Assembly: GCA_965645245.1 (NCBI GenBank)
Contig: OZ287081.1
Span: 372,001-436,000, forward strand
DNA: 64,000 nucleotides
DNA from: Massalongia carnosa
Taxonomy: Eukaryota
Direction of reading: 5' to 3'
A program made the position numbers and the translations under genes. Position 1 is the stretch's first letter, and every line of letters starts with the position of its first letter. A model generated the notes under the pieces. It was not told the origin of the DNA, did no database searches, and worked only from the letters and a program-made list of their open reading frames with translations. Shown piece by piece: positions 23,392 through 58,727 of the stretch.

Positions 23392-25823
23392 TAGGGCTAG
23401 GATATGTATTAAACATGTTTATTGACTAACCCGATCGGGAAGTGTTTAATACGTGTCAGTTGGCCCAACTGACAGACACAGGGATTAGCTACAGGGGGGA
23501 GGGGGGGGGGCGGAAGAAGCGGGAAGATAGAAAGTGGGGAAAAGATACTTTATTTTGTTAGCAATTTGCGTACAATTTTATGTATCTCCTACTCTACTAG
23601 CTAGGTGTTTATCCAAGCTCTCGTCGCATCGCCAAATATCGTTTGACTCGCCGGTCTTTTCGATGATGACATGGACGTATCAGATAAAGAGATCTCTTCT
23701 TGCAGTAGTCTATCCTCCATCTCACAAAGATCCGTCTCATTGATGTCAATGCCAGCAAACTGAAGCTTGCTTTTGAAATCTGTTGGCTGATTAAGAGTAC
23801 GCTCATTCATGTAAATAAACATGAGTTTATCGACATTGATGGAATGTAGAGAGTTCCGACTTTTGGTCATGATCAAATTCATGACCGACCAATTTCTTTC
23901 TGCCAGCACCGAATTAGCAGGCAGCATTATTACCTTTCTAGCTATGTTGCTGAGATCAAAAGCAAAGCTTCTGGAAAAGTTCCAAAACAGCTCCGAATCC
24001 GTTTGATATGTCCAGCATTCGGAGGCAGGATAAAAACCGTCTTCTTGATTTCGAAAAGAAAGCCATTGCTTCATTGCCGACTTTGCTTCTTCAACGTTCA
24101 GATATTCAGCAAAGAATCTATGCATGATAGAGAAAAATGCCTGCGACGTGGATACTCCAATCACCTGAATGTTATGATTCTGAGGAACCAACAGAGCTGC
24201 TACCACATGAAGTTCAGTTATTTGACTGAGATATCGATCTTCCCAAACTATCTCTGCAATGTGATGCAAATCCATCTCAGAATCTTCATCCTCTTTGGCC
24301 ATTGTATATAGGTGAGATCGAAGCCTGTTCCAATTGGCAGTCACCGCGTACAGTTTATGCCCCTCGGCCTCGGACATGTATTGTGCTTTATGGATGGGAT
24401 CAAGAATTTTCTGTACGATGGCCAGCTTTTTCCAAAACGAGAAGTCGTTGACGAATGTTCCTAAAGGATTACTTCTGCCCTGATCAATGCCCGGAGCATT
24501 TTGCTGAAAATAATCCAAAATTGCCTGCTTGCTTTTTAGCACCGAGTTCAAAAGGCCTACAGTCGTACCCCATCTGGTCAAAACGTTGAGAATCAATGAT
24601 TGACGTTGATTGTATGTCTTTGAAAGTTATAAATTAGCAATGACGTTTTGATGCCGCATTGAAATTTCATTCCTACTTACCTTCATCTGAAAATTCCATA
24701 GAATGGCCAATTCTTTATTCGATCCACGAAAAGCTATCACTATCGACTGAGCTTTTTGCATGATGTCTGCAAAAAAAGGAAGCTTCAAAATGTCTCCCAA
24801 AAGAAGCTGTAAACCGTGACTGTCGCAAGGAATGAAAAAGACGTGTCTCATCTCAGGAAACTTTCGAATTTCAGACCACATGGCCTTCATAGTAGAGCAA
24901 GTATCTGTTCCTATACAATTAACTCTCCAGAGCTGATTATTGGTCGCTTCTCTACAGCCTTTTATCATCCACTCAGCTTGAACAGCTGCAGTCATCGTCT
25001 CAGCGATGCCGGCCATTGCTTTTAAATGAAAGCCCCCCCCTCGAGAGGTAGCTGATGAAGGGACATGACAACAGAGATTAATAACCCGTTCCTTCTTGAT
25101 GTTGGCCGTTTCGTCGGTAAAGAAGTTGAGATAACTGCAGGCATCTAACTGCTGATTTACTTTCAGTTTAACCGTCTCATAGGCGTCGTCCAATAATTTC
25201 CCGCCAACGAGCTTATGATGTGGAGGTTTATATCCAGAATGCAGTGCTTGATGATGAGCAATCACATAGGGATTTTCGAAGTGGTTAAACGGAAGATTGG
25301 TCATAAAGACGGACATTGCAGCAGCGCGATGAGCATGCGCAACTTGGGCTTGATTTAAGGGACGAATCAAAGGGGTGATGGGCAATTGAATCAAAGATTT
25401 GCTGCTCCTAGAAGACGTCTCTTGCTGTCTTCTTTCTTGCACTTCTTGAAAGGCATTGCATGTCTGCAAATGCTGCTGACCCCTGGTAGCAACTTTGGCA
25501 GACTGATATCCGCAATGCGTACAACGATGCTGAGGGTATTTCATGCCTTCAATGATGACATCAACGAAATTCTCATCTACCAATGCATTTTCGGTCGACC
25601 GCCAGAATGTCCAGATTGTCGAGACATGATCAATGTATGTATAGAGATAATAGGAAGGTACCTCAAATTAGGTAGAAATGTCTAGTAATTTCAGGTATTG
25701 ATCTATGAGAAAGATAAATTTGACATGCTTAAGTAATATTATACCAAAAAGACAGGGTCCAAGTCTGCACGTGACGTATAATACGTGTCAGTTGGCCCAA
25801 CTGACGTATTTTTCCTAGCCCTA
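23392..25823 (-). mobile_element. hAT DNA transposon, 2432 bp
   Basis: 11-bp TIRs TAGGGCTAGGA/TCCTAGCCCTA. Perfect 8-bp TSD TGCACGAT at 23384-23391 and 25824-25831. Contains a transposase. Confidence 0.95.
23601..25627 (-). pseudogene. hAT transposase (BED-type Zn finger, DDE core, hATC dimerisation region) with a probable 5' frameshift
   Basis: CTHC...HLQTC, TDET, TDTCSTM, PCDSHGLQLL, TRWGT and ANSVLAERNWS. Intron 24680-24618 joins the two ORFs in frame. The ATG at 25627 (MSRQSGHSGGRPK) is out of frame with the main ORF at an A4 run, so there is either a 1-nt loss or a downstream start. Confidence 0.8.
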
Positions 25824-29468: not shown

Positions 29469-29668
29469 NNNNNNNNNNNNNNNNNNNNNNNNNNNNNNNN
29501 NNNNNNNNNNNNNNNNNNNNNNNNNNNNNNNNNNNNNNNNNNNNNNNNNNNNNNNNNNNNNNNNNNNNNNNNNNNNNNNNNNNNNNNNNNNNNNNNNNNN
29601 NNNNNNNNNNNNNNNNNNNNNNNNNNNNNNNNNNNNNNNNNNNNNNNNNNNNNNNNNNNNNNNNNNNN
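29469..29668. other. Assembly gap (200 N)
   Basis: Run of N. Upstream are a poly-G tract and short microsatellites. True gap length and contiguity are unknown. Confidence 0.99.
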
Positions 29669-37788: not shown

Positions 37789-38136
37789 TATCCATTCATG
37801 ATTGCTAACCTACAGAGTATGCTTGCCCGCCTTAGATGGGAGCTTTCCGCGTGTAAGGCAGCCTGCCAGCCTATTACGCATGGTTAGTATCTGTTCTCTG
37901 TACCCGATCCCAGGGCTGAGTAGAAGCGCAGATGTCAGATAGATGATGATGGGCGAAGACCTTTCTTGCTACTACAGAAAAGGGAGATGACTATACAGAG
38001 TGACAGGGCTGAGGGCCAAGCTCGCTTAGTAATGACCATTTTGACAGCAGATTATGTATGGTCAGCCTGACCAGCTTCGATTGGCAAAAAAGCCTTGTTG
38101 CTCGCAGCTGAAGTTGTTCGGTTTCCTCAAACCATT

Positions 38137-40039
38137 ATGGATCCAGTAACAATTATTGGTGCAGCTGGTGCTGTCATTGGCATCATTGATGTTGTTGGCA
38201 AGACTATCAAATCATTGCGTGAACTGCATGATCAACGGAAAGAAGCTGACATGAATATCTTGATTCTCATGTCACAGTTGACTTCGCTGCGAGCGGCGCT
38301 GAACAAGATATCGGAATGGATCTCGTCAGATCTTGCTAATATACCACAGCATCACCAGCTTATCATCGATTTAGAAGACTCTATTACATGCTGTAGAATT
38401 CTTGTTAGAGACATGGACGATCAGATCTCGAAGGCGAATAGGAATGGAGATGCTGAGGGCCTGGATAACAAGATCCGGGTGGTATGGGAAGACAAGGCCA
38501 GCAAGAACTTCCAGAAGTTTATTCAGAGACAGACCAGCGCCCTAACACTACTGCTAACAGCTTGCAATTGGTATATCCTACCAAGATCTTGCTACTTTCT
38601 ACTGTCTAGACTGAACTCATGGGTAGCAAAACCTCCTCCGAACAGAAAGCTTTCCTTGAACAGTCCACAAGTCGAAAAACCTTTAATCAAGTCCGTGATG
38701 ATTCGTCCTGGATGATCGTGCTCCGCGATACGGCTTCTTGTTTTAGCAGCGGTACTCAGTCCACAGAACAGTCGTATAATATTTCGCTGACATTTCCGTT
38801 CGATGCGGAGCTGATGGGCTCTCGAGTTTATCAAAGAGCAGTTCGATCTCTATTCCGACGCCGAAATCGTCCAAACGAAAAGGCGAACGTGGCTTCGACA
38901 AAATCACAATCGATCAACCTATACCTAACACAAGAAACCAAAGACTCCTGCACAAAGTCAAGACAGATTGACGCCATTATCGATGAAAGTCGAAAAGAAA
39001 TGAGAAAAACGTGTAAGATTCTGATGCTAGGTGGACCTAACAGCGGAAAGGACGTTGTTTGGGAAAGAATGAAAATCCTCAACCAAGGGGGATATAACAG
39101 GCAAGTGCGTCTTGGTTACAGAGACAAAGTTTTGTCTACTGTATTTGACGTTTCAAATCTTGTTCTGGATGAATGTACTAGAAGGGGGTTGGACTTTGTT
39201 GCTGAGTCACAAAGGCCGCTCTTGGAAACCTTCATACAACAAGCTTCGTCTCAACATCAACGCTCCTCAGATGATCTGCTTGCCATGAACCGGGAGATAT
39301 TCGCTATCTTGCAAGAATGTGGAGGACAAACAGACCTAAGATCAATGGATGCTATCATTGGCTCGTCAACCTCATAGTGAGTCGCTTGACAACATTTTCC
39401 AGAGTTCATATTTAATCTTATGTTCAAATTAGCTTTATGGAAAACATAGACAGAATCGCCGAACCTGATTACGTACCTACTGCTGCTGACATCCTTCACT
39501 TGCCAGCGTCAGTATTTCAAGAAACGGGAATTCGTGAGATGAAATTAACCATGGGTTTACTGACTCTGGAGGTCCTCACCATTGGAGAACAAGAAAGTGA
39601 AAGGAAAAAATGGCTCCACCTCTTCGAAAACCTTACCTTGATTATATTTGTTGTTGATCTTTGCTTGTATGATCAGAAGATAGAAGGACAACCTGATCAT
39701 AACCAGCTGCAAGAAACTTTGGTTCTCTTCGACGCCATTGTCAACTCCCGGTGGTTCAGGCGTACTTCTATCATCCTATTACTCAACAAATCCGACTTGT
39801 TCAAAACAAGGCTGCGCGAAAGCCCCATGTCAAACCATTTCCCCGATTATCAAGGTGGCGACAATGTAGATAAAGCTGTGAGGTATATCTCACAGCGCTT
39901 CAATCGGCTCAATTGTGCACACCTCCCCCTTTATATGTTTTTGGCCGCATCGACAGATGTATCTTTCTTACGCTTTGTTTTCTCCACTATGAGCGATACA
40001 CTCCTTCATAACGCGTTAAAGGATTTAAAACTCATCTAA
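38137..40039 (+). CDS. Fusion of a fungal HeLo-like (STAND N-terminal type) helical domain to a degenerate G-protein alpha subunit, 596 aa
   Basis: Exons 38137-38570, 38627-39376 and 39433-40039 splice in frame (1791 nt). N-terminus MDPVTIIGAAGAVIGIIDVVGKTIKSL. G-alpha hallmarks KILMLG..SGK, RIAEPDYVPTAADIL, SERKKWLHLFE, IVNSRWFRRTSIILLLNKSD and the C-terminal NALKDLKLI. Confidence 0.88.
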
Positions 40040-45688: not shown

Positions 45689-47306
45689 CTTAAAATCATC
45701 CTATCTGTCACTTTATGCAGTGCGTGAGGTTCAGTGGTCGACGGAGTTACGAGGCCGCAGGCATCGCAACATTTGCAAGCCGAAACGAGTGAAACGGAAA
45801 GGATGCGGCAAGGTGGCACCGTCGAAGATTAAATATCTTCATGGGTATTTTACGACACCATGCCATCTCAGAACTGAGATTTTGGAACGATTTCAACTTT
45901 TTACGATCGAAACAATTTGTAAAAGGTTGTAAAGTCAAAACCACAGTATTATCTATTTAATTTAATATTCGCAGCATTGAAATCGAAAATTTGAAAACTT
46001 TTCTAAATTTACGATACTTGCGAAATTGGAAAATGTCACACTTGATTACCCGGACGATAAATTTTTGATAGCACAATAAAGTTGTTGTCTATTTTGCAAT
46101 TGAATACAATTTCTAAGTGACATGATACCGTATATCATCATAAACTTACAGCAGGATTCGGAGGAACATGAGTTATCATGTCATGTTGCGATCGCAGAAT
46201 TACTTCCGGATATACAATGTTATCCGTTTTTCCGTCATTTCGTTCCGGAAACAACACACAATCGAGACACATCCGTAACTCGAGATAATGCCACATAAAA
46301 CTGACCATGAGTAAAAGGAGGAGCTCGCAAATCGACTCCTACTGTGTCCAATGATTGACCTTGCAACTTGTTGACAGTCATAGCAAAGCACAATCGTATG
46401 GGAAATTGTTTGCGATTTATGATCCAGGGCAACTCGCCTTCCGTGGTATTAAGAAGAATCCGGGGAATTAATCGCGTTTCACCGTTGAATTCTCCTCCCA
46501 AAATCTTTCCCTCTAGACAGGTCCGCGAAATGTGAGTAAGACGTAATCGGGTGCCGTTACAGAGACCAAGTTTGGGATATAAATTCCGCAACAAAATAAT
46601 CGGAGCTCCAAGTTTCAGTTGCAATTGTGAAGGAGGTAAAGACGATGTTTGCAAGGTTTGTAAAAACTCGGGAGGAAGAAAGTCTCCTCGTTCCTGCGCC
46701 GTATCGTTCTCTATTTGATCAACGGAATTCAAGGTGTGCGAATCGCCCTGCAATTTATTCAGTATTGCACCGTTTAACTCCGCGACGATATCGTTTCGCA
46801 AAGTCAAAATTGCTCGACTTGCGAAAAAACCCGCATCCAGATGAGCTTGCCGCATGCGATCCGAAGGAAAACCGGTGTCCACGAAACTGTCTAAGTTGTT
46901 CAATTGATTGACTTGTTCCGATAGCTGAACACGACCGTAAAAAGCAGGATCATAAGACATTTTCCCGATCCAGTCCGCAAACGCCTCATTGGCGACTCCG
47001 TTACGAATTCGCATGTTTTGACGCAAAAACAGTTTTTGAAATCGCGGCCACAGAAAGGTGTTTTGAATGTTCGCCGCAACGATGGCTTCCCGATTTCCAC
47101 GGGGAACAACGGGCAAGATTTGAGCGAAATCTCCGCCTAACACCATCGGAATACCTCCTAAAAGATCGTCATTGCCTAAAAGGTCTGTAAAAGTGCGATG
47201 TACGGCCATGAAGCATTGTTTGTGTTGCATCGGCACCTTATCGCAAATTAATGCTGTGCGTTGCAAAAGACCGTGTAAATGCGTGTTGCGGGTGATATTA
47301 CACATG

Positions 47307-50300
47307 ATGATGATGATTGATTCTTGTACCGATCTGACACCGGCCGAAGGCCGGCCCATGCAGGCTATCTAGTTATTCTTACAGGGAAAACCTTTTAAAG
47401 GGATAAAAACCATGCAGACTGCGCCATTATCCCAAACGTGTTCCGTTTCTGGACTGCATTCTTCGCTCGATGTTCTGTGAAATCCTTGACAAAATGAGAG
47501 TTATCACTCGTATAACAGTTGCGATGCTAGTGAAAATTGGGTCAGCAAATTTGCTTTTATTATCCATGTGGTTAGTTTTTTCAACATTTTCGACGAGCTC
47601 ATGATCGTTCGATAGTCGTTGGTGCCTATTTGTTTTAGCACTTCGTATCTGCCGTCGATTAGCCTGCAATGTAGAATAATGTGTTTGGCTGTCTGCTTCT
47701 GCCATCCGCACGAGCAGGCCGGGTTCATAACGCCCGGTACCCGACGATTGAACAGGAAGTTTGCCAAGCCTATTTTTTCGGTGCGGATTTGTGTAGTTAG
47801 CGCGCTTTCCGCTTTCATCAGGTTGTTGTGAATCTTCAGTCTCGTCTTACTGAGAGATCCCAACTGTGCCTCTGTCGGGCGGGGAATGCGGTTCTGGTAC
47901 GTCTTCCATTTGGAGTCCCAGAGTTCCTTGATGCGTTCTGTGGTGGCCTTTGTGTGTTTCTCTATGGTATGGCGTGTCGTGGTGCATTTTTCGAGGTGCG
48001 CCGGGTCGGGTGTGGACCAGGGCGGGGACGATGGGGGCATTGTGACTGGTGCCTCGTTATTCAACATTTTGCTGGCCCATTCGTATTTCAACTCTCCTGG
48101 GGTGAGGTGTTGCGTTCTTTTGCGTCCTGCCTTACCCCGTAGCTTGTTCGCTATTGTGTTGCAGGCTTTGGAAATCAGTTTCGCCTGCCCTGCGGCCCGT
48201 AGACGATACCTTGATTTTATCTGTAGATTGTCCAGATGCAACTCCATGGGGGCGATGAACGTTTCCGCTTCGAGAACTTCGACGGGTGTTGCCTTGAACG
48301 CCCCTGTCACGGTGCGTAAGCATTTGTTCTGCATGACGCTGAGTTTGGACGTCGTGGCCTTGTTTTTCTTGATTTCCCTGGGTGTGTGCCACACGGTGCT
48401 TCCATAAGTCATTGCCGGGCGAACGACGACGGTGTAAACCTGCCGGGCCTTCGCGAAAGAAGCTCCCCAGGTGGATGTCGATATTTTTGTGAGCGCCAGC
48501 GACTGCGACGTCATCTTTCCCTGTGTTTTCCGTATGTGGGCTCCCATTTCAATTTGGTGTCGATTTGGAGGCCCAGAACTCGTGTGTCCGTTTTCGGTTC
48601 TATTAGGTTGTTTTCTATTTGAATAGTAGCCGACATGTCGAATTTCTTTGGATTTCTGGACAAATGAATGAGCTCATACTTATCCGGTGCAAATACGGAC
48701 CCGTGGCGTGCCGCCCATAGTTCGCATTTTCTGTGAACTCTTTCGAGGGTTCTGCAGTTTTCTTCCGTGCTTTTGCCGTATGCCAACACATTTACGTCGT
48801 CTACAAATCCTAGCGCGCTCGTGTTTGTGCCGGGTCTCTCGCATATCTCTAAAAGGTCCGCATTGTAGAACAGGTAGAGAATAGGGGAAATGGGTGAGCC
48901 TTGAGGAATGCCCGTGCGCACCGCGAACTCCTCGGTTACTCGCCGGTTTATCGTTAGCGTGCTTCTTCTTTCCTTCAGAAAGCTCGCCGTCCAGTCTGTG
49001 ATCCATTTCGGGATTTTCCTTTTTCGCAGATTGTGTATCAGCCTGCGATGAGACACTGTGTCGAATGCGCCTGCTACATCCATGCTGAGGAGAGTTGCCA
49101 CCTTGTTGTTGCCTTGTCCCCATACAGTGTGTACCTGTTCGGTGAGGAGTTCGAGCGCAGACTCGGTAGATCGGCCACGCCGAGCACCCATTTGTGTGTC
49201 CGGCAGGAGCCGGTGCTGTTCCGCTATATGAGTGATCTTCCTTGCGATGACTGCTTCTAATACCTTACCCATTGTGTTCAGTAAAGCTATGGGTCTGTAT
49301 GCCTTTGTACTGGTATTGTCTTTCTTTCCCGGTTTTCTGAGCGCGATCGTGTTTGCTCTTTTGAACTCGCGGGGATGATACGCATGCGTGACGCAAGCCT
49401 GAAATAAAGGGGTTAGCAGCTCTGCTAGCTTTGTGGAGCATGCCTTGAGAATTCTGTTGGTGATCCCGTCAGGGCCCGGAGCCTTGTCGGACTTAAGACG
49501 TTGTATGTTTGCGATCACTTCGTCATTTGTGATTGTCATGGGGCAAACCGCGGCGGCGGGGTAGAACGACCCAGGTATGTCGCTCAAGTCGGCCGGCGGG
49601 GGGGGGAGAAAGAATTTGGCTTTCAGCATTTCCGCTTTTTCTTCGAACGTCTCCGCTGTTTGCCCTTCGTGCCTCAATGGCGGCATTTTCGGTATCTCGC
49701 GGGGCTTCTGACTCTTGTCTTTTGCCCATCTTGCTAGCTTCCATATGCCCAACGGCGACTCGGTGGCTTTGCTTATCTCTTTGCGAAATGAGAGCGTTTT
49801 TGCTTTTTGGATTATCTTTTGCTTCTTGTCGTTGGACTTCATATATGCCTTCCAGTCGTCTAAGTGGCGCGATGACGACCAGAAGCGGCGCAATTTGCGA
49901 GTCTCGCGGATGGCGCGGTTGCATTCTTCGTTCCAAAAGGGTTTCGTATATTCGCTGGGTCTGGCCCAGGGGACGGAGGCGGTTATGATTTTCTGCAGGA
50001 ATTCTTGAATTGTCTGAGCGTACTGATCTATTTATCCGGTTGAGCGGGGGTGGGTTACGGGCGGGGCGTTGCTTTCAGCCTCCCTCAATTTCTCCATGTT
50101 CAGCAGCTTCCATGCTCTGCGCTTTACATTCGTTAGCTGTTCACTCCCGAGAAGAATGCGAGTGGATATCGGAATGTGATCAGAGGATTGATTCATTTCC
50201 GGTCTTGACATGCAGTGTTCCAGTCTTTCCGCCAGAAATTCCGACATGAATACTAGATCTATAGTGCTAAAAGAGTTCCGGGCCTCCCACGTGACGGTTC

Positions 50301-50401
50301 CTTTGGGCAGCGTCAGTGAGAGGTCAAATTCTTCTACTATATTCAATAACTGATCTGCGGCTGCGTGTTGTGTTGGCCTTGTGATTCCATTCCAAAAGGT
50401 A
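47307..50401 (-). mobile_element. 5'-truncated non-LTR retrotransposon (LINE, Tad1-like), 3095 bp
   Basis: Partial APE domain (STIDLVF, SDHIPI), RT (KAPGPDG, YRPIALL, GIPQGSPISP, FVDD) and C-terminal CSC...H...C. (ATC)n 3' tail. 14-bp TSD TGATATT(A/G)CACATG at 47293-47306 and 50402-50415. In-frame stop at 50034-50032 and a frameshift near 48545. Confidence 0.93.
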
Positions 50402-52720
50402 TGATATTGCACATGCTGTCCTCATTTAAAATCAAAGGAATTTTAAAACGGGAATGTGAAGTCTGTCCGCCAGGAAGAAGTAAAGCCGCAATGCCGGAAG
50501 ACGCAACGCAAAGAACGATTTTATTCTCCGCCCGAAAATGATTGCAAAGAGTCTTATATAAAAAAGTCTTACCTGTTCCTGCAGGTCCGTGAACAAAAAA
50601 ATGCGCCGTTCTAGGATGATCTCTAACTCCCGCAACAATGATATCAAAACAGTATTTCTGATCCGCATTCAATTGAGTAAATCGTTCATTTCGTAACGTC
50701 GTTTCTTCGTTGAAATCGTAAGTCATTTCATTTGCGATCAACGGATTTCCAGTACTCCGACCCCAATCGTATTTAAACAGCGGCATATTATAATCCTCTA
50801 ATCGTTTTCCTAAATCCGAAAGAACTCCGTTTAACAAATAAAGGCCGTAATCTAAATGCGGACTCATTAAATCGTCAGGAACATCAGTCATTGATCGTAA
50901 TCGATGCGGTAAATCTTCACATATATCATTTGCGTATCGATTCCATGAGGCCGTGGGATCCGTAACACGACCGTGAACCAAAGCCGTTCCAAATAACGCC
51001 CGCAATGCGTGTCCAGAAGAAAATCGCACCACTTCCGCAAAGCAACTAAACCATTCCTGATCATCTTCCAACAGTCCTCGAGCACTGCAAGCGGCCTGAA
51101 ATGTTGAATACATCACTCCGTCAACAGTGCGCAGATCCTCAAAGGACTGCGGTCCCGGAACAACCGTTAAAAGCATCCGCAAATAATATTTCTTACCCGC
51201 CATGGGACTGCAGGCATAAATACGACCAACCGCAAATCCGCGTTGACGGGGTTGCCAGCATTTTTTCTTGGCTTCCCAAACATAACTGTTCGGGAAATCT
51301 TGATATATAAACTCGCGGTCGTCCGCGTGGATTCTGTTATAATTGAAAAATGCTATCAACTTTGTAACGGATCGATTTGAGGTGTTATGCAAATCTATAA
51401 TATCTGCATCCGCGCTGAGATATACGTACTGTTGATCCGGCAAATGAATCGGAAGATGATAAACCGCAGGAAACTCCTCGTGCAAAGGATACTCCCATAA
51501 CTGCCATGCGGCTTGAGTGGGACCGATATAACGACCGTTTAAATGTCTCGCGATTTCGTCGTCAAATCCGTCAATCTGCACAGTAGCTCGATCTGCGCCT
51601 TTGTAAATATATTTATGAATATATTTGACCGCTTTAACGGTCGCGCAGAGCTCGACATTAATATGAGCTTCATATTTGCGAGAAAGATACGGATTATACG
51701 GAACCACCCAGCGATTGTCGCAACGAAAAACCCGACCACCACTCATCGGAACCTCCCAGGTGCGACCATCATTGCGGCGACGATATATCGGATAACCGCC
51801 CTCTTCAACAACAGTTGTTCCCTGAAACGGGCAAGGATAACGCTTGGAACAGGTGGGAGATCCGGATTCGGTTTGCATACAGGACGCGGTAGGCATTGCA
51901 GCTCCGCAAGGACCGTGAACCATTTGTTTAATGATGGTCTGTCTTAAATTTCCATCCGTATCAGGAGCAGGATCCGGCAGTTCGGCGGAAATTATTTGAT
52001 CAATACGATCCGCATCCATAAAACGATCATGCGGATGTAGAAATAACAGCAAATGCATATGCGGTAATCCTCGTTTTTGATATTCGATGGTCCATACACA
52101 TCCGCGAAATCGACCGAAAATGTTGTCCTTTTTCAATTCCTTCAATAAACTGCTCTGTCGCAGTCGAAAAGCGCGCGCCACAATGTCCGGTCGATCCGTT
52201 GCGGTTTGTCCAGGAAAGTCCTTTAATGCTTCCTTGATTTCCGGCCAGTTAGGATTTGCGGTAAACGTAATAAACAAATCCGGCCGCCCAAAATGACGAA
52301 CCAAGGCCATACTATCCTGAAACAATTGCTGCATGAACCGATCTCCACCCGTAGTTATATGTGGAAGGAAGAATAAATCGCTTTCCTAACATTCGCTGCA
52401 GAATCGACTTCATCCCGCCGCAAACTGTCCGCGAGTCCGTTATACAGCTCCGCTCTGATCGTTTTTTGATTTTCACGTAACCATTGCAGTTTGTTAAGAT
52501 CGCAACTGGCCCACGCATCAACTAAATATTGCTGAAACAATCGCTGACAATGATGCATGATAGAGAATTCATTTCGACGGGTGTGCAAACGATATCTGTA
52601 AAACGCCCGTTGACATAAACGATCTCGTTCTCTTTCTCTAGCATTGGACCGAAGCCGCATACTCCAATCCCAGCCATGTTCGCCATGCGGAAATAAAAGA
52701 ACGTAATGTAAAGGCATATA

Positions 52721-54620
52721 TCCGTGCCACCCACATCGCTCGGGTCGCCTCGCTTAGTGCTAGCCAGCCATACAACCCAACTCAGCCATACAACCCAAAA
52801 TGCTACTCCTCTACATACATCGGGGTTTTTTTCAACAATTCCTTCAGTACTTCCTCCTATCTTTTATGCTATTCATACTTTTGGTCATCTTCAACTTTCG
52901 ATGAGCTTTGGTTTGTTTAGCAACCTTGCCCAGTGCCAAAGAATATCGCTTTTCCCATGCGATCATTCGATCCTTCTCCCTCTGAGCCTCCTGATTCTGT
53001 CTATCACGAATCATTGATCGAGCCTTTCGTGCAGTAAGTATGCCCCCAATCTGAAGTACCTTATTGCTCTCTCGTTTGCGTGCTTTTCGAACTTTTTTGG
53101 CCTTTGTTTGTTGATCCCATCGTTGTTCGAGAAGTTCTCCTTTTCGGACTTCCGAAACAGCCCTCTTTACAAATTTTGCTATCATTTGTGTAAGTTCATC
53201 CGAACAACGGGAATGCATCATAATGTCTGCGGCTACTGTACTCAATTGTCTGACAGTCCTAGGGGTCTCTTGTATTGATTGAATCGACGAGGGTAGGGTA
53301 ATCTCGCGGGGGGGTGGTAAACTCTCTCTGACCTTTTGAAGAACCACCTCAGGATTATATGGAATTAGGCCGGTTTTTCTCCATGCAGACGTAATCATTG
53401 TTGATTTGAAGGCCTTTGCCCGAAAGGTGTTGAATGCAGCTAGAAATTCCACTTTCGAGAACGTTTCATCACCGTTCTGAATGGCCTCATTGACAGCCTC
53501 GGAATGCCAATGCTTTAAAGGCTGAAACACACATACATCAAGCGGTTGCAATAAGTGAGTGGTATGTGATGGTAATCCAAATGGAATGATGTTATAAGCG
53601 TCACAATACTCTAAAAACTAACGAGTATGATGAGATCCATGTCCATCCATAATCAACAGTCTCCATGCCCCCTTTCGAATGTTTCGAGAGTGTTTATCGA
53701 AGTGTTTAATCCATTGCAAGGCCAGCCAGTCATTTGAAGAACCTGATTCAGCAGTAGTAATAAGAACATCATTGCTAAGATCGTTGAGGAAAAAGGGAGC
53801 GAGAATGCTGATTCCAGTCAAAATCAGCATAGGGGGAATATCTCGTCCAGTCCCATTGATACATTCCACTCCGGTCAGTGATTCTCTGTTTGATGGATCT
53901 TTATTATACATCCTTCGGTCTTTTGATGCACTGACTATCCAATCAGTACGTGCCATGCCAATGCGATACCCGGTTTCATCAAAATTCCACTGATCTTGAG
54001 GATCTATGCCATACTCATCAATTACCTCTTTGTATTTTGTAAAGTGAGCCATTAGCAACTCTAAATCATGCGCATTTTTTCGCTCAACAGCTAGAGGTTT
54101 TCGTCGAACTTTGAATAAATCGGGCTGACGATTTAACCATATCTTGGTCCAATGCGACCCGATCAAAGGAGGCGGTTCCGAAACAGGAGCTGTTTGACGA
54201 AGAATAGAATTTGCTGCGATTTCCACCATGTGCAATCGGGCAGGTATGTTCAAAGAGTCCAGTTTCTTGATATACATATATAGGGCCGACTCTTGATCCG
54301 GTTTCAGACGTCTAGTATGCAGTCCTCGTATCTCTGATTTAGATGGGGCCCCATGATATCGAGAACGAAGTCTTTCTCTAGGCACTTCAAATTCTCGTGC
54401 AATTGCACGAAGTTTCGCGTTTTTCCGCGTGTTTAAGGTGTCAATAGCCTTCGTAATGCGACTTTCGATTTCGGTATATGATTCAGGCATGGTGGTGATG
54501 GATGATAAACTGTTGAAAGGTAAATGCTTGAAATTTGACGAATTGGGTTGTATGGCTGAGTTGGGTTGTATGGCTGGCTAGCACTAAGCGAGGCGACCCG
54601 AGCGATGTGGGTGGCACGGA
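52721..54620 (-). mobile_element. pogo/Fot1-like DNA transposon, 1900 bp
   Basis: Identical 78-bp TIRs at 52721-52798 and 54543-54620, each with two copies of CAGCCATACAACCCAA. TA TSD at 52719-20 and 54621-22. Confidence 0.96.
52844..54490 (-). pseudogene. pogo-type transposase (HTH, CENP-B HTH, DDE_1) with one nonsense codon
   Basis: WNFDETG, LIMDGHGSH and LQPLDV. An in-frame TAG at 53620-53618 (HHTR*FLEYC) separates two ORFs in the same frame. Confidence 0.9.
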
Positions 54621-55748: not shown

Positions 55749-58277
55749 ATGAACCCGACCGATGTAGCTTTACCTGCCTCTCATTCGCCTCGCCCTCCAT
55801 CTTGCACACCGCTGAATAGCCCAAGCCAACACCCGACCTCATCAGTTGGCGCCATCGACCGAATTAGTCAAGTTCTGGAACTCTTTGTTCGTGCACTAGA
55901 GAAGCTCGATCCTGCAACAGAGGCTGAGGTAGCTCATCCGAAAGGAACCGAGGATGTCAAAGCCGTTGAGCCGAGAGTTCGAGCCTCAAAGTTGGAATAC
56001 AAATTATTGAAGAAGTGTAGGTCTTTGTTCTGTGCTCTTAATATCATTAAATCTTGCTGTACAGCTGGGAGAGTGCTGCATCCAATTATAAAGTTGTGGA
56101 GTCAACGGTATTAGAGGGCGTGACAGAGCTAGACGAATATGTGTTTTTAGATCGTGCTCGAGTTGGTAAGTTCCTAGAAATCTAAGACTTCGACGCACTA
56201 ATCAAATCCCTAGAGAAGGACACGTTCGAAGAAATCCACTATCTTGATATCAACTCAGATGGACTGAGAGACGTTCTAAGAATGGTGCTACGAGACGCAC
56301 ATGGGTTCTCTATCTTAGAGGATAAGATCACTGTATGGGCCATTCTTGGCTTTCCGGGCATCTTCTAACAGCGGTACAGGTTGAGCGAAACCTTCTATTT
56401 CACTATGTTGCCGAGCTCGAAGCGTGTCGAACAGAGCTCAAAAGCGATGGCGACAATGACGCAAAAGTCCAGCAGCTAAGCTTACTAGTCGACTATATCA
56501 AAACCACCTATACACCGACCAAGACCCGTATCGCAATCTATCTCAAAAATCGCGAGATCACGTACGACTTGCTCTGGGCTCTGTTCAAGCCACACTCCGC
56601 AGTATACACCACTATCCTTGATTCAGCAAAGCCAGCTTGTTTTAGATACGGCTCCGGCAAGGAAAAGACAGGTTCTAATGGAGTAACATATTTTCATGTG
56701 GAGTCCCGCTACATGGACTACAACGGGAACGCATTTCGTGAAGTATTCACAGCGCTCGGAATCCGGAAATTCCCAGGGAAAAGGTGCATCGACAGCCTTG
56801 AAGCATTTTTTCTTGTGTTTCATTGCCGTCATCAAGAGATGAAGAAGCATCTTCTCAGATGTGGTCAAAAATTCCTTTTCCTCATGGGCATACATCACGC
56901 TCAGTATACTGGGAATGCCTTCTTTTTGAGATAGGAGATTATACCCAAGTTCCTGTGGAGAGTCGCATCATGGTCGATGTCGCTTACTTCCGCAAAGTCA
57001 TTCCGAACTACGTCAGGCCGCGCATCAACGAGTTGGCCCAGTCAACGAGTTCTTACTTTTTCAACGTGGCACCCGACGCGGTCAAGAGCAAGGGCCTTGA
57101 GCCGAAAGCATTGAGCGACGGTGACTTGATGATTTGCAGCCAGACCGTATACGGTTGGAGTTTTGGTAACAAACAATGGCGTAGGTTCTCATCTCCTTGT
57201 GCTCTGTCGAAGGTTCGTGCTAATGTTTCGCAAAGTGGAATTTGTGGTGGATGATATCAAACCCATCGTATGGAACCCATCTTCGTTTGACAGCCTGAGA
57301 TTCCTCGGGCCAAGAAAAGTGTCATCACTGCCCTGGCAAAGGCCTATATGGCCCGAGGATCGGACTATACGTTCGAGGATTTTGTGGAGGGAAAAGGTCA
57401 AGGCCTCATTGCGCTTTTGCAGTATGCAGCCCAACGTCTGGGTTCTCGGGCTTCAACTGATATGTACTTTCAGTGGTTCTTTCGGTGTTGGCAAGACTCT
57501 TACTGCGGAAGCGCTGTCCGAGTACCTCGAGAGGCCACTATACGTCGTAAGTCGCGCTTTTCCTTTGGTTACGCTGGCCTCTCTGACTTTTCAGGTATCG
57601 GCTGGAGAGCTGGGCCAAGAAGCAACGAAGCTCGAAGATCAATTAAGCCGTGTCTCCCAAGTCGCTCATCATTGGAAAGCATTTGTCCTTCTTGACGAAG
57701 CCGACGTATTTGTGCAAGCGCGCTCTTTCAACAATCAGCACAACACTCTCGTCTCGGTCTCCTTGCGAAAACTTGAGTACTTCCGAGGAATCTTATTCCT
57801 GACCTCAAATCGTGTCCAGCATATCGACGATGCAATCCAGAGTAGGCTCTTAGTGGCGTTGCATTACGGACCGCTAGGGCTTGATACAAGAAAGACCATA
57901 TGGGCAAGCTTTTTGAAGAAAGGCGCCGCAAAATACACTCCTCAAGACCTCGATTGGTTAGCTCAGAGGGAAGTCAGTGGTCGGCAGGTTTGTCTTCGAT
58001 CAATGCATGTATGTGGATGGGTTTGCTGACCATTGCGTCCATCCAGATCAAGAATATGGTGTTTACAGCTCATGCTCTCGCTGCTAACGACAAGAGTCCA
58101 TTGTCACGTTCACACTTACCAGTTGTCATCGCCTTTGATGAGGAGTTTCAGAAGGATTACAGCGGTGCCGGTCAAATAGAACGTGAGGTACGATGCGAAT
58201 ATGAATGGCGTGGTTATCGTCTGCACAATATAAGTAAAGTCGCACGAATTGGAGGGAGGATCAAACAGTTCAGCTGA
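55749..58277 (+). pseudogene. Fungal AAA+ ATPase family gene with apparent frameshifts
   Basis: ITYDLLWALFKP, SRIMVD, Walker A GVGKTLTAE, Walker B LLDEADVF and GILFLTSNRV..IDDAIQSR. Frame switches near 56930 and 57310 are not explained by obvious introns. Confidence 0.78.
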
Positions 58278-58727
58278 TTCTCACCTTTGTCGGTGAGGTA
58301 TTTAAGTTGCGTCGATGAAAAATCGTAAAGTGGGGTCGGGTTCTTTCAACGTAGGCGGCAATCTGCGCATTTAAGAGGCTGTTCAGAGAACAAGTCGGAG
58401 CATAGTAAAAGCGCACAGCGCAAGATGAGGTAAAAGTGAACGTTGATGCTCAACGGAAGGTGGGTTCCTTAGGAATTCACCACTGCACCCTGGCATTTCG
58501 TTGCCGAGGTTGCACTAGCACAGGGCGATCACTTTCACCCAGCCAGCTTTCTTCCCAAAACTGCATTGTTCTTTTCAAAGCTGTATAACGACCTGTCATA
58601 AAAGTATCTAGAAATTCATAAGAAGTTTTCTTCCAGTCCTGTTCCGATCCAGTCTCCAGCAGTACGACCCTCAATTCGCGACGAGACTTTGCCCGGCGTC
58701 TTCTGGCCCGGCGCCTTCTGTCTCGAG

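What the first reader, a model, noticed from the sequence alone, without database searches (positions are those of the whole stretch)
38137..40039. HeLo-like effector domain fused to a catalytically degenerate G-alpha: candidate fungal immune sensor/decoy
Seen: three exons splice into a clean 596-aa ORF. About 150 N-terminal residues start with the hydrophobic MDPxxIIG...GII pattern and look helical. A linker (FPFDAELMGSRVYQR) follows, then a recognisable G-alpha. The nucleotide motifs are altered: the P-loop is GGPNSGKDV instead of GxGESGKST, switch I lacks the catalytic Arg (SVFQETG instead of RxxTxG), and G3 is TIGEQ instead of DVGGQ. NKxD (NKSD) and SERKKW are kept, and the spliced protein has no N-terminal MGxxxS. 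Established: HeLo and HeLo-like domains are N-terminal effectors of fungal NLR/STAND and HET-S-type cell-death proteins. Inference: the G-alpha may act as a pseudo-GTPase switch or integrated decoy that releases a membrane-targeting effector. I cannot say whether this architecture has already been described.
Basis: partly seen in the sequence, partly recalled or inferred. Interest (0 to 1): 0.8.

Follow-up and report, generated by a model that had tools for sequence, protein, structure and literature searches.

The report
HeLo-like bundle fused to dead G-alpha
This fungal gene joins a four-helix domain of the kind that punches membranes in fungal cell-death proteins to a G-protein alpha subunit that has lost its catalytic residues; it belongs to a large family that appears never to have been studied as such.

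Summary
Three exons (38137-38570, 38627-39376, 39433-40039) splice through two 56-nt GT..AG introns into a 596-aa protein. Residues 1-144 form a confident four-helix bundle with a hydrophobic, Gly-rich first helix and match HeLo-like Pfam PF17111. That match is below threshold for this protein but clear for the family (82 of 150 relatives). A conserved linker follows, then a complete G-alpha fold with catalytic Arg→Pro, Mg-Thr→Glu, P-loop Ser→Asp and DVGGQ→TIGEQ.

It is not a one-off: 704 proteins share the N-domain, and 26 of 32 scanned relatives of 400 aa or more carry G-alpha. The Gα half derives from fungal group III Gα and evolves fast (median 19% identity, against 39% for the N-domain and 77% for canonical Gα). 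None of 38 members keeps both catalytic residues.

The Podospora anserina member (Pa_5_11500, a split gene model) was listed in 2013 as "HeLo + P-loop" and is induced 6.15-fold during incompatibility. Its Gα nature went unnoticed.

Best reading: an MLKL-like two-part protein, a membrane-targeting bundle controlled by a pseudo-GTPase. That function is inferred, not shown. No RNA data, docking test or dN/dS could be obtained.

The parts
38137..38570 (+). Exon 1: residues 1-144 plus 2 nt of codon 145; the HeLo-like (PF17111-type) four-helix bundle domain
   Evidence: gene model. (PF17111, E = 4.7e-4). (AF2 pLDDT 82.5; helices 3-33, 39-64, 73-102, 106-118, 120-143). (Atlas nearest clusters are PigL_N/SesA, scores 0.95-0.97).
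38143..38199 (+). Residues 3-21, PVTIIGAAGAVIGIIDVVG: hydrophobic, Gly-rich start of helix 1
   Evidence: the highest Kyte-Doolittle 19-mer of the whole protein (1.96); the family consensus keeps DPxxxxGxxGxxxxIIDV.
38571..38626 (+). Intron 1, 56 nt, phase 2, GT..AG, with a branch-point-like ACTGAAC; holds an in-frame ATG at 38619 (MGSKTSS...)
   Evidence: conserved position inferred from read-through ORF calls (24 CNW and 8 CNR short proteins, against 12 CNC, 14 CNS and 8 CNT long models; 80 of 149 rows were not matched by my pattern).
38627..38924 (+). First part of exon 2: conserved linker, residues 145-244 (CKTSSEQK...FPFDAELMGSRVYQRA...)
   Evidence: 13 of the 25 invariant columns of the 16-protein alignment lie in P0002 residues 144-214, which correspond to this linker; median pairwise identity 36%.
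38925..39376 (+). Rest of exon 2: G-alpha alphaN helix, degenerate P-loop (GGPNSGKDV, 39030-39056) and most of the helical domain
   Evidence: aligns from residue 5 of solved G-alpha chains. PF00503, E = 1.3e-11.
39377..39432 (+). Intron 2, 56 nt, phase 2, GTGAGT..TAG; removes an in-frame TAG at 39375-39377
39433..40039 (+). Exon 3: rest of G-alpha to the stop codon. Switch I with a 3-residue insertion (39485-39532), G3 TIGEQ (39578-39592), NKSD (39785-39796), C-terminus ...NALKDLKLI
   Evidence: PF00503, E = 1.2e-55, profile positions 144-332 of 333; aligns to Gai residues 157-354, that is, to its last residues.

Best explanation
The gene encodes a two-module protein of a large Pezizomycotina family. 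The modules are an N-terminal HeLo-like four-helix bundle (residues 1-144) with a hydrophobic, Gly-rich first helix, a conserved linker of about 100 residues, and a complete G-alpha fold that derives from fungal group III G-alpha but can no longer hydrolyse GTP. In this copy it probably cannot bind Mg-GTP normally either.

Shown: the architecture, the homology of both halves, the loss of catalytic residues, the much faster evolution of the G-alpha half, and the co-inheritance of the two halves.

Inferred mechanism: it works like MLKL (four-helix bundle plus pseudokinase) or like HeLo-like domains on fungal NLRs. The pseudo-G-alpha would be a regulatory or sensor module that holds or positions the bundle. 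A change in what it binds would free the bundle to oligomerise and insert its first helix into a membrane, as part of a non-self or stress response. Candidate binding partners are G-beta-gamma, a receptor, a regulator, or a foreign molecule that targets G-alpha.

The confidence given is for the mechanism. The architecture itself is near certain.
For: Architecture and homology:
- establish the two halves of the window's protein.
- The family is large: 704 N-domain relatives at E <= 1e-3.
- G-alpha is found in 16 of 23, 28 of 50 (26 of the 32 that are 400 aa or longer) and 34 of 150 relatives. Many of the rest are short ORF calls cut at intron 1.

HeLo-like nature of the N-domain:
- PF17111 hits in 13 of 16 and 82 of 150 (best E = 8.9e-9) relatives. 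Two members lie above Pfam's cut-off (P0069 at 30.0 bits, P0098 at 27.4 bits).
- Atlas neighbours are PigL_N/SesA clusters.
- The AF2 model is a four-helix bundle with a short helix between helices 3 and 4, the layout PMC9815663 describes for HeLo-like and MLKL domains.
- MLKL, NRG1.1 CC-R and Rx-CC are among the VIA-align matches at Z 10.5-10.9.
- The most hydrophobic 19-mer is residues 3-21.

Pseudo-GTPase:
- All 11 of 11 canonical group III proteins keep every site tested.
- Among 38 fused members the catalytic Arg is kept in 3, the catalytic Gln in 6, both in 0, and GK[ST] in 5.

Sensor-like evolution:
- N-domain identity exceeds G-alpha identity in 44 of 44 comparisons with the window and in 404 of 406 family pairs.
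- Median identities are 39% (N-domain) and 19% (G-alpha), against 77% for canonical G-alpha.
- Yet the fold is kept: AF2 pLDDT is 65-87 over the G-alpha of P0002.

One evolutionary unit:
- The window's G-alpha groups with the fused G-alphas of Xylographa and Heterodermia (support 90/86). These are the same relatives as for its N-domain.

Function hint:
- Pa_5_11500 aligns with the window's N-domain at 37% identity, E = 4e-24.
- It is listed under 'HeLo, pore-forming toxin', with associated domain 'P-loop', and is 6.15-fold up in the incompatibility reaction (PMC3689799 Table 5).
Against: - No experiment or expression data exist for this gene. No listed run is on record as RNA, and contigs showed no spliced joints.
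- The window's own PF17111 score is below Pfam's cut-off (20.0 against 27.2 bits).
- Today's Pfam gives no HeLo or PigL_N hit at all for the Podospora protein at E <= 10.
- The structural matches to MLKL and CC domains lie inside the range the tool itself calls non-discriminating for helical bundles (Z under about 13). The top match is IncA, and Foldseek found nothing at E <= 1e-3.
- PF17111 domains also sit on proteins with no known death function.
- No NLR, HET or amyloid-partner gene lies nearby.
- Fast evolution of the G-alpha half fits relaxed constraint as well as sensor diversification.
- The window's copy keeps canonical-looking switch II (SERKKWLHLFE), NKSD and C-terminus, which would also suit an ordinary signalling role.
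Confidence: 0.48

Rival explanations
1. It is a membrane-tethered atypical G-alpha that acts in ordinary G-protein signalling without killing. The helical bundle replaces the lost myristoyl/palmitoyl anchor or mediates oligomerisation. The nucleotide-independent G-alpha sequesters G-beta-gamma, a receptor or a regulator, much as plant extra-large G proteins do.
For: - The spliced protein lacks the N-terminal lipidation motif.
- The window's copy keeps the alphaN helix, switch II SERKKW, NKSD and a canonical-like C-terminus NALKDLKLI (canonical group III: NALKDSGIL).
- Plant XLGs combine a long N-terminal extension with a G-alpha-like domain, bind G-beta-gamma and can act independently of nucleotide (PMC8584482, abstract and passages).
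- N-domain relatives with a CRIB/PBD domain (P0144) or a PH domain (P0070) point to signalling partners.
Against: - Across the family the supposed binding surfaces are not conserved: C-termini and switch regions differ widely and median G-alpha identity is 19%. A conserved G-beta-gamma or receptor interface is therefore unlikely for the family as a whole.
- The best conserved part is the HeLo-like bundle and linker, not the G-alpha.
- The Podospora member is induced with the other HeLo genes in incompatibility.
Confidence: 0.3
2. The G-alpha half is a decaying duplicate with no function of its own. Only the N-domain and linker matter, and the rest is carried along.
For: - G-alpha motifs have decayed differently in each lineage.
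- Terminal branches are 0.23-4.6, against 0.04-0.37 for canonical G-alpha.
- All 25 invariant columns of the 16-protein alignment lie at or before the first P-loop Gly.
Against: - Full-length open G-alpha domains of normal size persist in several ascomycete classes.
- Pfam still recognises them end to end (up to 276 bits), and AF2 folds the Xylographa one with pLDDT 65-87.
- Structural-core blocks stay conserved (YFxDxIxRIxxPDYxP, FPDYxGG).
- A neutral tail of about 350 codons would not stay open that long.
Confidence: 0.08
3. The model wrongly joins two genes: a small HeLo-like gene and a separate G-alpha-like gene that could start at the in-frame ATG in intron 1 (MGSKTSS...).
For: - No RNA evidence exists for this species.
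- The in-frame ATG at 38619 gives an MGxxxS-like start. That this motif is the myristoylation consensus is recalled, not tested.
- P. anserina S mat+ carries two gene models at its locus.
Against: - The Podospora split lies inside G-alpha, and its first model holds the N-domain, the linker and the P-loop together. Sibling species annotate one 603-aa gene.
- The conserved linker and the G-alpha N-half share one exon in the window.
- The motif across the junction (LLLTACN-C-KT.SEQK) is contiguous in 16 of 16 aligned gene models.
- The read-through signature fits a conserved phase-2 intron.
- The two halves have the same nearest relatives.
Confidence: 0.04

Closest known systems
Podospora anserina Pa_5_11500 / Pa_5_11490 (PODANS_5_11500, _11490), and the 603-aa single-gene models of sibling Podospora species
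   Same: It is a direct family member. The N-domain is 37% identical over all 144 residues (E = 4e-24) and the order N-domain, linker, G-alpha is the same. PMC3689799 Table 5 lists it as a HeLo 'pore-forming toxin' gene with a 'P-loop', induced 6.15-fold in incompatibility.
   Different: It keeps an intact P-loop (GAGGSGKST), DVGGS and TKRD, so it may still bind nucleotide, which the window's copy probably cannot do normally. In the passages I read, the paper describes it only as HeLo + P-loop, because the gene model is split inside G-alpha.
HeLo-like / HELL domain proteins (Pfam PF17111; HELLP, N-termini of fungal NLRs) and the HET-S HeLo domain
   Same: The N-terminal position, the profile similarity at family level, the four-helix bundle with a short helix between helices 3 and 4 and the hydrophobic first helix.
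   Different: The C-terminal partner is a G-alpha fold, not an amyloid motif or a NACHT/NB-ARC with repeats. The window's own score is below Pfam's cut-off. Death-inducing activity is untested.
MLKL (four-helix bundle + brace + pseudokinase), the necroptosis executioner
   Same: It works alike in outline: a membrane-targeting bundle, then a linker, then a catalytically dead enzyme fold acting as regulator. The bundle aligns at Z 10.8 (4btf) and Z 10.5 (6ux8).
   Different: The regulator here is a pseudo-GTPase, not a pseudokinase. Those Z values are within the noise for helical bundles, and no sequence similarity to MLKL was seen.
Fungal group III G-alpha (GNA-3 / GanB / GpaB / Gpa2 type)
   Same: These are the nearest canonical relatives, at 47-53% identity over exon 3; all 120 listed hits are 353-394 aa and bear such names. 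The fused G-alphas nest inside the Pezizomycotina group III node (support 98/92). The helical domain, alphaN and C-terminal helix are all present.
   Different: The lipidation start MGxC is lost (compared with P0200). The catalytic Arg, the Mg-binding Ser and Thr, and the DVGG residues are lost. There is an extra 244 residues at the N-terminus, and evolution is about ten times faster. Groups I and II were not in my tree.
Plant extra-large G proteins (XLGs)
   Same: They combine a long N-terminal extension with a G-alpha-like domain, can act independently of nucleotide, and have a role in immunity (PMC8584482, abstract and passages).
   Different: The N-terminal domain is unrelated (Cys-rich, with NLS and NES), the lineage is plants only, and the origin is independent.
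GaoC of Aspergillus flavus / A. oryzae and Gpa4 of Ustilago maydis ('fourth', degenerate G-alphas)
   Same: They are fungal G-alphas with substituted P-loop glycines and catalytic Gln. They are predicted to be inactive, and GaoC was never deleted (PMC5869405 passages; PMC3100592 passages).
   Different: They are reported to hold only a G_alpha domain. No protein in my 38-row table has the P-loop described for GaoC. Whether GaoC carries this N-domain was not tested, because I had no sequence for it.

Membership tests
HeLo-like domain (Pfam PF17111, PigL_N / former Helo_like_N) | Profile match of the window's own protein at Pfam's curated cut-off | tested here: inconclusive
   E = 4.7e-4, 20.0 bits against a cut-off of 27.2, residues 7-117 on profile positions 4-110 of 209. 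The match is significant as an E-value but below the gathering score.
HeLo-like domain (Pfam PF17111, PigL_N / former Helo_like_N) | Homology of the N-domain family to PF17111 | tested here: met
   13 of 16 and 82 of 150 (best E = 8.9e-9) relatives hit PF17111 at E <= 0.01. P0069 (30.0 bits) and P0098 (27.4 bits) pass the cut-off. Only 2 of 150 hit SesA, and none hit HeLo PF14479. The Atlas neighbours are PigL_N/SesA clusters.
HeLo-like domain (Pfam PF17111, PigL_N / former Helo_like_N) | Four-helix bundle with a short helix between helices 3 and 4, and an N-terminal hydrophobic helix at the very start of the protein | tested here: met
   AF2 pLDDT 82.5, pTM 0.80; helices 3-33, 39-64, 73-102, 106-118 (short), 120-143. 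Residues 3-21 give KD 1.96. The layout matches the description in PMC9815663. Matches to solved MLKL and CC bundles are not discriminating.
HeLo-like domain (Pfam PF17111, PigL_N / former Helo_like_N) | Membrane targeting and cell-death induction when released | not testable with these tools
   There is only an indirect hint: the Podospora member is induced 6.15-fold in incompatibility (PMC3689799 Table 5).
Heterotrimeric G-protein alpha subunit (Pfam PF00503) | G-alpha fold: Ras-like domain with inserted helical domain, alphaN and the C-terminal helix | tested here: met
   PF00503 at 189.4 bits for exon 3 and 44.7 bits for exon 2. The protein aligns to Gai/Gaq residues 5-95 and 157-354.
Heterotrimeric G-protein alpha subunit (Pfam PF00503) | Intact GTP-binding and GTPase residues (P-loop GxGxxGKS, switch I Arg and Thr, DxxGQ, NKxD) | tested here: not met
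   The window has GGPNSGKDV (Ser→Asp), Arg→Pro, Thr→Glu and TIGEQ (Asp→Thr, Gly→Glu). Only the P-loop Lys, the Gln and NKSD are kept. It is therefore filed as a pseudo-GTPase with a G-alpha fold, not as a working G-alpha.
Heterotrimeric G-protein alpha subunit (Pfam PF00503) | N-terminal lipidation start (MGxxxS / MGxC) | tested here: not met
   The spliced protein starts MDPVTII, whereas canonical GpaB starts MGSCFS. That these motifs are the lipidation sites is recalled knowledge.
Fungal group III G-alpha (descent of the C-terminal half) | Branches with group III rather than groups I or II | tested here: inconclusive
   All 120 listed nearest canonical hits bear group III-type names, and the fused rows nest inside the Pezizomycotina group III node. 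No group I or II sequences could be fetched for the tree.
Fungal NLR / STAND protein | Central NACHT or NB-ARC NTPase plus C-terminal repeats | tested here: not met
   Pfam finds no such domain in any exon of the window's gene. Among relatives there are only weak P-loop-level hits to NACHT, NB-ARC and nSTAND that overlap the G-alpha P-loop.
MLKL family | C-terminal pseudokinase domain | tested here: not met
   No kinase hit was found. The resemblance lies in design only.

The most novel reading that the evidence does not exclude
Filamentous ascomycetes carry a family of MLKL-like executioners whose regulatory pseudoenzyme is a G-alpha. The dead, fast-evolving G-alpha would act as bait or mimic of the cell's own group III G-alpha. 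When it is engaged, the HeLo-like bundle is released and kills or seals off the cell. The engaging factor could be a foreign molecule that targets G-alpha, or an abnormal state of G-beta-gamma or receptor signalling. Together with the HeLo+Rho gene listed beside it in Podospora (Pa_7_900, PMC3689799 Table 5) and the CRIB-bearing relative (P0144), this would make guarding of GTPase signalling a general theme of fungal innate immunity. It would parallel the way animal cells monitor Rho GTPases (recalled knowledge).
Probability: 0.25. Interest if true: 0.85.

Novelty: new variant of a known kind. Interest (0 to 1): 0.62.

Why it matters
HeLo and HeLo-like bundles are the executioner modules of fungal programmed cell death and are related to MLKL and to plant CC/RPW8 domains. 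So far they are known to be controlled by amyloid templating or by NLR oligomerisation. A family in which the controller is a dead G-alpha would add a third control logic, executioner plus pseudoenzyme, as in MLKL. It would also link heterotrimeric G-protein signalling to fungal cell death.

The question is directly testable, because Podospora anserina, the genetic model for incompatibility, has a member that is already known to be induced in the non-self response.

There are two practical points. Surveys that count fungal G-alpha genes will meet these proteins as odd 'fourth' subunits. And the P. anserina S mat+ gene models at this locus appear to be a mis-split single gene.

Tried and rejected
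RNA support: no RNA holder was listed. The four runs laid are contigs that run through both introns without joints and without any differing letters, so they gave neither splicing nor divergence data.

Own genome: not held, so paralogues and the canonical G-alphas of this organism could not be looked up.

Nothing was folded.

Full-length AF2 of the Xylographa homologue with 16 sequences: the N-terminal 245 residues scored below pLDDT 55, so it says nothing about domain contacts.

Foldseek against the PDB: no match at E <= 1e-3, and the top rows are IncA, SPECT and designed bundles.

VIA-align wide: IncA at Z 13.5 is the top match. MLKL, NRG1 and Rx at Z about 10.5-10.9 are not above the helical-bundle background.

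Profile search with alignment A1: it returned only 19 proteins from the lichen-fungus neighbourhood because of the candidate cap, and no Aspergillus protein. GaoC membership stays open.

Earlier scan notes: three look-ups, nothing found.

Literature:
- Zero papers for 'HeLo-like + G-alpha + fungal', 'Helo_like_N + G-protein alpha', 'pseudoGTPase + G alpha + fungi' and 'HeLo + G alpha + Podospora'.
- Searches listed nothing relevant.
- The library holds only open-access PMC papers and bioRxiv preprints, so subscription papers are not covered, and no supplements were read.

Script slips:
- The P-loop columns were mis-indexed by 10 residues.
- crashed on a pattern.
- The summary counts were distorted by gap columns.
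- All three are superseded.

Upstream repeat: the 38-base search matched only itself in the window.

Considered and dropped:
- A recent capture of a canonical G-alpha by gene conversion, suggested because exon 3 is closer to canonical group III (about 52%) than to fused relatives (31-41%). The careful tree places the window's G-alpha with the fused ones of related lichen fungi, so slow decay in this lineage explains the observation better.
- The idea that MGS in intron 1 is a relic of the ancestral G-alpha start. The ancestral start would align near residue 240, not 145.
Full report
**Observation**

The exons are 38137-38570, 38627-39376 and 39433-40039 on the + strand. The two introns are 56 nt each: GTATAT...TAG with a branch-point-like ACTGAAC, and GTGAGT...TAG. 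The CDS is 1791 nt and encodes 596 aa. Intron 2 removes an in-frame TAG.

All quoted motifs are present: MDPVTIIGAAGAVIGII..., FPFDAELMGSRVYQR, GGPNSGKDV, SVFQETG, TIGEQ followed by SERKKW, and NKSD.

Pfam gives G-alpha for exon 3 (E = 1.2e-55, profile positions 144-332 of 333) and for exon 2 (E = 1.3e-11). For exon 1 it gives PF17111 PigL_N at E = 4.7e-4 (20.0 bits, cut-off 27.2). PF17111 is the family that the fungal NLR literature calls HeLo-like (PMC9815663, passages read).

**The G-alpha half**

Against solved structures, exon 3 aligns to Gai residues 157-354, that is, to the last residues of the chain (E = 6e-44). Exon 2 aligns from residue 5 of G-alpha chains, so the alphaN helix and the helical domain are present.

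I used 11 canonical fungal group III G-alphas to define the columns, and all 11 keep every site. The window's protein has these states:
- the P-loop Lys is kept, but the Mg-binding Ser is Asp;
- the catalytic Arg is Pro, beside a 3-residue insertion;
- the Mg-binding Thr is Glu;
- the G3 Asp is Thr, and the Gly next to the Gln is Glu;
- the Gln itself and NKSD are kept.

So the fold is complete, GTP hydrolysis is excluded by established G-alpha enzymology, and normal Mg-GTP binding is doubtful. That last step is an inference.

**It is a family, not a one-off**

- A word-indexed search with exon 1 found 23 longer proteins, 16 of them with precomputed PF00503. They come from Xylographa, Bacidia, Trichoglossum, Venustampulla, Cudoniella, Lophiotrema, Massariosphaeria, Amniculicola, Monosporascus and Cladophialophora.
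- An exhaustive HMMER search found 704 proteins at E <= 1e-3, 312 at <= 1e-10 and 19 at <= 1e-30.
- Of the 150 listed I scanned the 50 longer ones not yet scanned. Of these, 28 have G-alpha, and among those of 400 aa or more the figure is 26 of 32.
- Scanning all 150 rows of alignment A3 gave 34 with G-alpha and 82 with PF17111.
- Many of the rest are ORF calls of 140-220 aa. Among rows that my pattern matched, 24 read CNW and 8 read CNR and stop about a dozen residues later, whereas rows reading CNC, CNS or CNT are long. That is what a conserved phase-2 intron (exon ending TG or AG, intron starting GT) gives when it is read through. The pattern missed 80 of 149 rows, so this is partial evidence.
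- Named members also include Corynespora, Clohesyomyces, Lecanora, Agyrium, Stromatinia, Fusarium and several Podospora species.
- Rare other partners of the same N-domain are a CRIB/PBD domain (P0144), a PH domain (P0070) and PNP_UDP (P0022, possibly merged genes).

**One gene or two**

P. anserina S mat+ has two models at its locus, whereas sibling species have one 603-aa gene. The alignment shows that the 354-aa model holds the N-domain, the linker and the G-alpha P-loop, then runs off at a missed intron. The 199-aa model is the G-alpha C-half. The split therefore lies inside G-alpha and is an annotation artefact.

In the window the conserved linker and the G-alpha N-half lie in one exon. 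The junction motif LLLTACN-C-KT.SEQK is contiguous in 16 of 16 aligned models.

No RNA evidence could be obtained for this species.

**The N-domain**

With 150 aligned sequences AlphaFold2 gives pLDDT 82.5 and pTM 0.80. The model has helices 3-33, 39-64, 73-102, a short helix 106-118, and 120-143. PMC9815663 describes this layout for HeLo-like and MLKL bundles.

Residues 3-21 are the most hydrophobic 19-mer of the whole protein, and the Gly pattern is conserved.

Structure searches do not decide the matter. Foldseek has nothing at E <= 1e-3. VIA-align lists NRG1.1 CC-R (Z 10.9), MLKL (Z 10.8 and 10.5), Rx-CC (Z 10.6), MLA13 (Z 8.8) and AtMLKL3 (Z 8.7), but IncA leads at Z 13.5. The tool itself warns that Z under about 13 is common for helical bundles.

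The case for HeLo-like homology therefore rests on sequence profiles and on the Atlas neighbours.

**Evolutionary pattern**

All 25 invariant columns in the 16-protein alignment lie at or before the first P-loop Gly.

The N-domain is more conserved than the G-alpha half in 44 of 44 comparisons with the window, and in 404 of 406 pairs among 29 near-complete members. Median identities are 39% (N-domain), 36% (linker) and 19% (G-alpha). Canonical group III G-alphas share a median of 77%, with a minimum of 67%.

The motif counts cover 38 fused rows. Before counting I dropped four near-identical Podospora rows, P0070 (which has no G-alpha), and two rows with under 200 residues after the cut. Among the 38, the catalytic Arg is kept in 3, the catalytic Gln in 6 and both in 0. 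GK[ST] is kept in 5, the P-loop Lys in 23, and the Asn of NKxD in 8, with Thr in 15. Five members, including Podospora, keep a plausible nucleotide-binding set.

**Origin of the G-alpha half**

The 120 best listed canonical relatives of exon 3 are proteins of 353-394 aa at 47-53% identity, with names of the GNA-3, GpaB, alpha-3 or Gpa2 type.

In a quick tree (23 fused and 15 group III rows) and in a careful tree without the eight longest branches (15 and 15 rows), all fused rows fall inside the Pezizomycotina group III node (support 98/92). That node lies above the basidiomycete, Taphrinomycotina and Pezizomycetes rows.

In the careful tree, twelve fused rows form one clade (88/76). A single origin holds in 44% of bootstrap trees and is not excluded. 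The window groups with Xylographa and Heterodermia fused proteins (90/86). These are the relatives its N-domain also has, so the halves were inherited together.

There are two limits. No group I or II sequences could be fetched, and the long branches make deep placements unsure.

**Function**

PMC3689799 (passages and Table 5 read) lists Pa_5_11500 (354 aa) among HeLo 'pore-forming toxin' genes, with associated domain 'P-loop', and reports a maximum induction of 6.15-fold during het-R/het-V incompatibility. The same table lists a HeLo+Rho gene (Pa_7_900, 14-fold) and HeLo proteins with a Pkc-like domain.

PMC6709928 (one passage) reports Pa_5_11490, described as a G-alpha-2 subunit, among genes down-regulated in a PaRid mutant.

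The window's N-domain aligns with Pa_5_11500 over its full length. Today's Pfam does not hit that protein with HeLo or PigL_N at E <= 10, so the paper's label rests on another method or an older release.

The neighbourhood of the window's gene offers no help. It holds an OPT transporter, an amidoligase-like protein, a phosphodiesterase and then transposon remains, and no NLR or HET gene.

**Reading**

I rate the architecture and homology as near certain. I put the mechanism, a membrane-targeting HeLo-like bundle governed by a pseudo-GTPase in the manner of MLKL's bundle and pseudokinase, at roughly 0.45-0.5.

The main rival (0.3) is a non-lethal, membrane-tethered atypical G-alpha like the plant XLGs (PMC8584482). 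This rival fits the window's own rather canonical switch II, NKSD and C-terminus, but it does not fit the family-wide loss of those surfaces.

Neutral decay (0.08) is hard to square with full-length, foldable G-alpha domains kept across classes. A mis-joined model (0.04) is contradicted.

**Novelty**

Databases already hold these proteins under automatic names, such as 'Fungal N-terminal domain-containing protein' and 'G-alpha-domain-containing protein'. One member appears in a 2013 table as HeLo + P-loop.

My searches of the open-access library found no paper that describes a HeLo-like::G-alpha architecture. Subscription journals and supplements were not covered.

I therefore rate it as a new variant of a known kind: a HeLo-like executioner-type protein with a new kind of regulatory module.

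Noticed in passing
window 38000-38046: A short stretch just upstream of the gene is present at about 20 times the depth of the gene in the DNA runs (for example 8793 against 448 in X1), and assembly contigs break there. It is probably the edge of a high-copy repeat. A 38-base probe overlapping it (38034-38071) matched only itself in the window.
   Followed up: partly
window 38619-38626 (inside intron 1): An in-frame ATG gives MGSKTSSEQK..., an MGxxxS-like start, so a transcript initiating in intron 1 could encode a linker plus G-alpha protein without the bundle. Conversely, retention of intron 1 gives a 192-aa protein, the bundle plus 48 unrelated residues. That ORF exists in the protein collection as P0024. 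Either could be chance.
   Followed up: no
window 46238-54577 and 61632-63473: A transposon-rich stretch holds Helitron-like helicase pieces (PIF1, Helitron_like_N), a reverse transcriptase, pogo/Tc5-type DDE transposase pieces and a piggyBac-like DDE_Tnp_1_7 ORF.
   Followed up: no
window 56326-61157: A DUF7025 plus AAA ATPase gene and an 852-aa fungal-specific kinase (Pkinase_fungal, E = 5e-141) lie between the transposon remains.
   Followed up: no
window 23604-25667: Two adjacent minus-strand ORFs carry a hAT dimerisation domain and DUF659. This is probably a hAT transposase interrupted by a stop or an intron.
   Followed up: no
window 29469-29668: A run of 200 N, a scaffold gap, lies just upstream of the OPT transporter ORFs.
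   Followed up: no
relatives P0144, P0070, P0022, P0125: The same N-domain subfamily occasionally pairs with a CRIB/PBD Rho-binding domain, a PH domain or a PNP_UDP phosphorylase. One G-alpha member also gives a weak NB-ARC hit over its P-loop. PMC3689799 Table 5 also lists a HeLo+Rho gene (Pa_7_900).
   Followed up: partly
Podospora anserina S mat+ models PODANS_5_11500 and PODANS_5_11490 (P0173, P0177): These two public gene models look like one gene split at a missed intron inside the G-alpha domain. Sibling species annotate a single 603-aa protein.
   Followed up: yes
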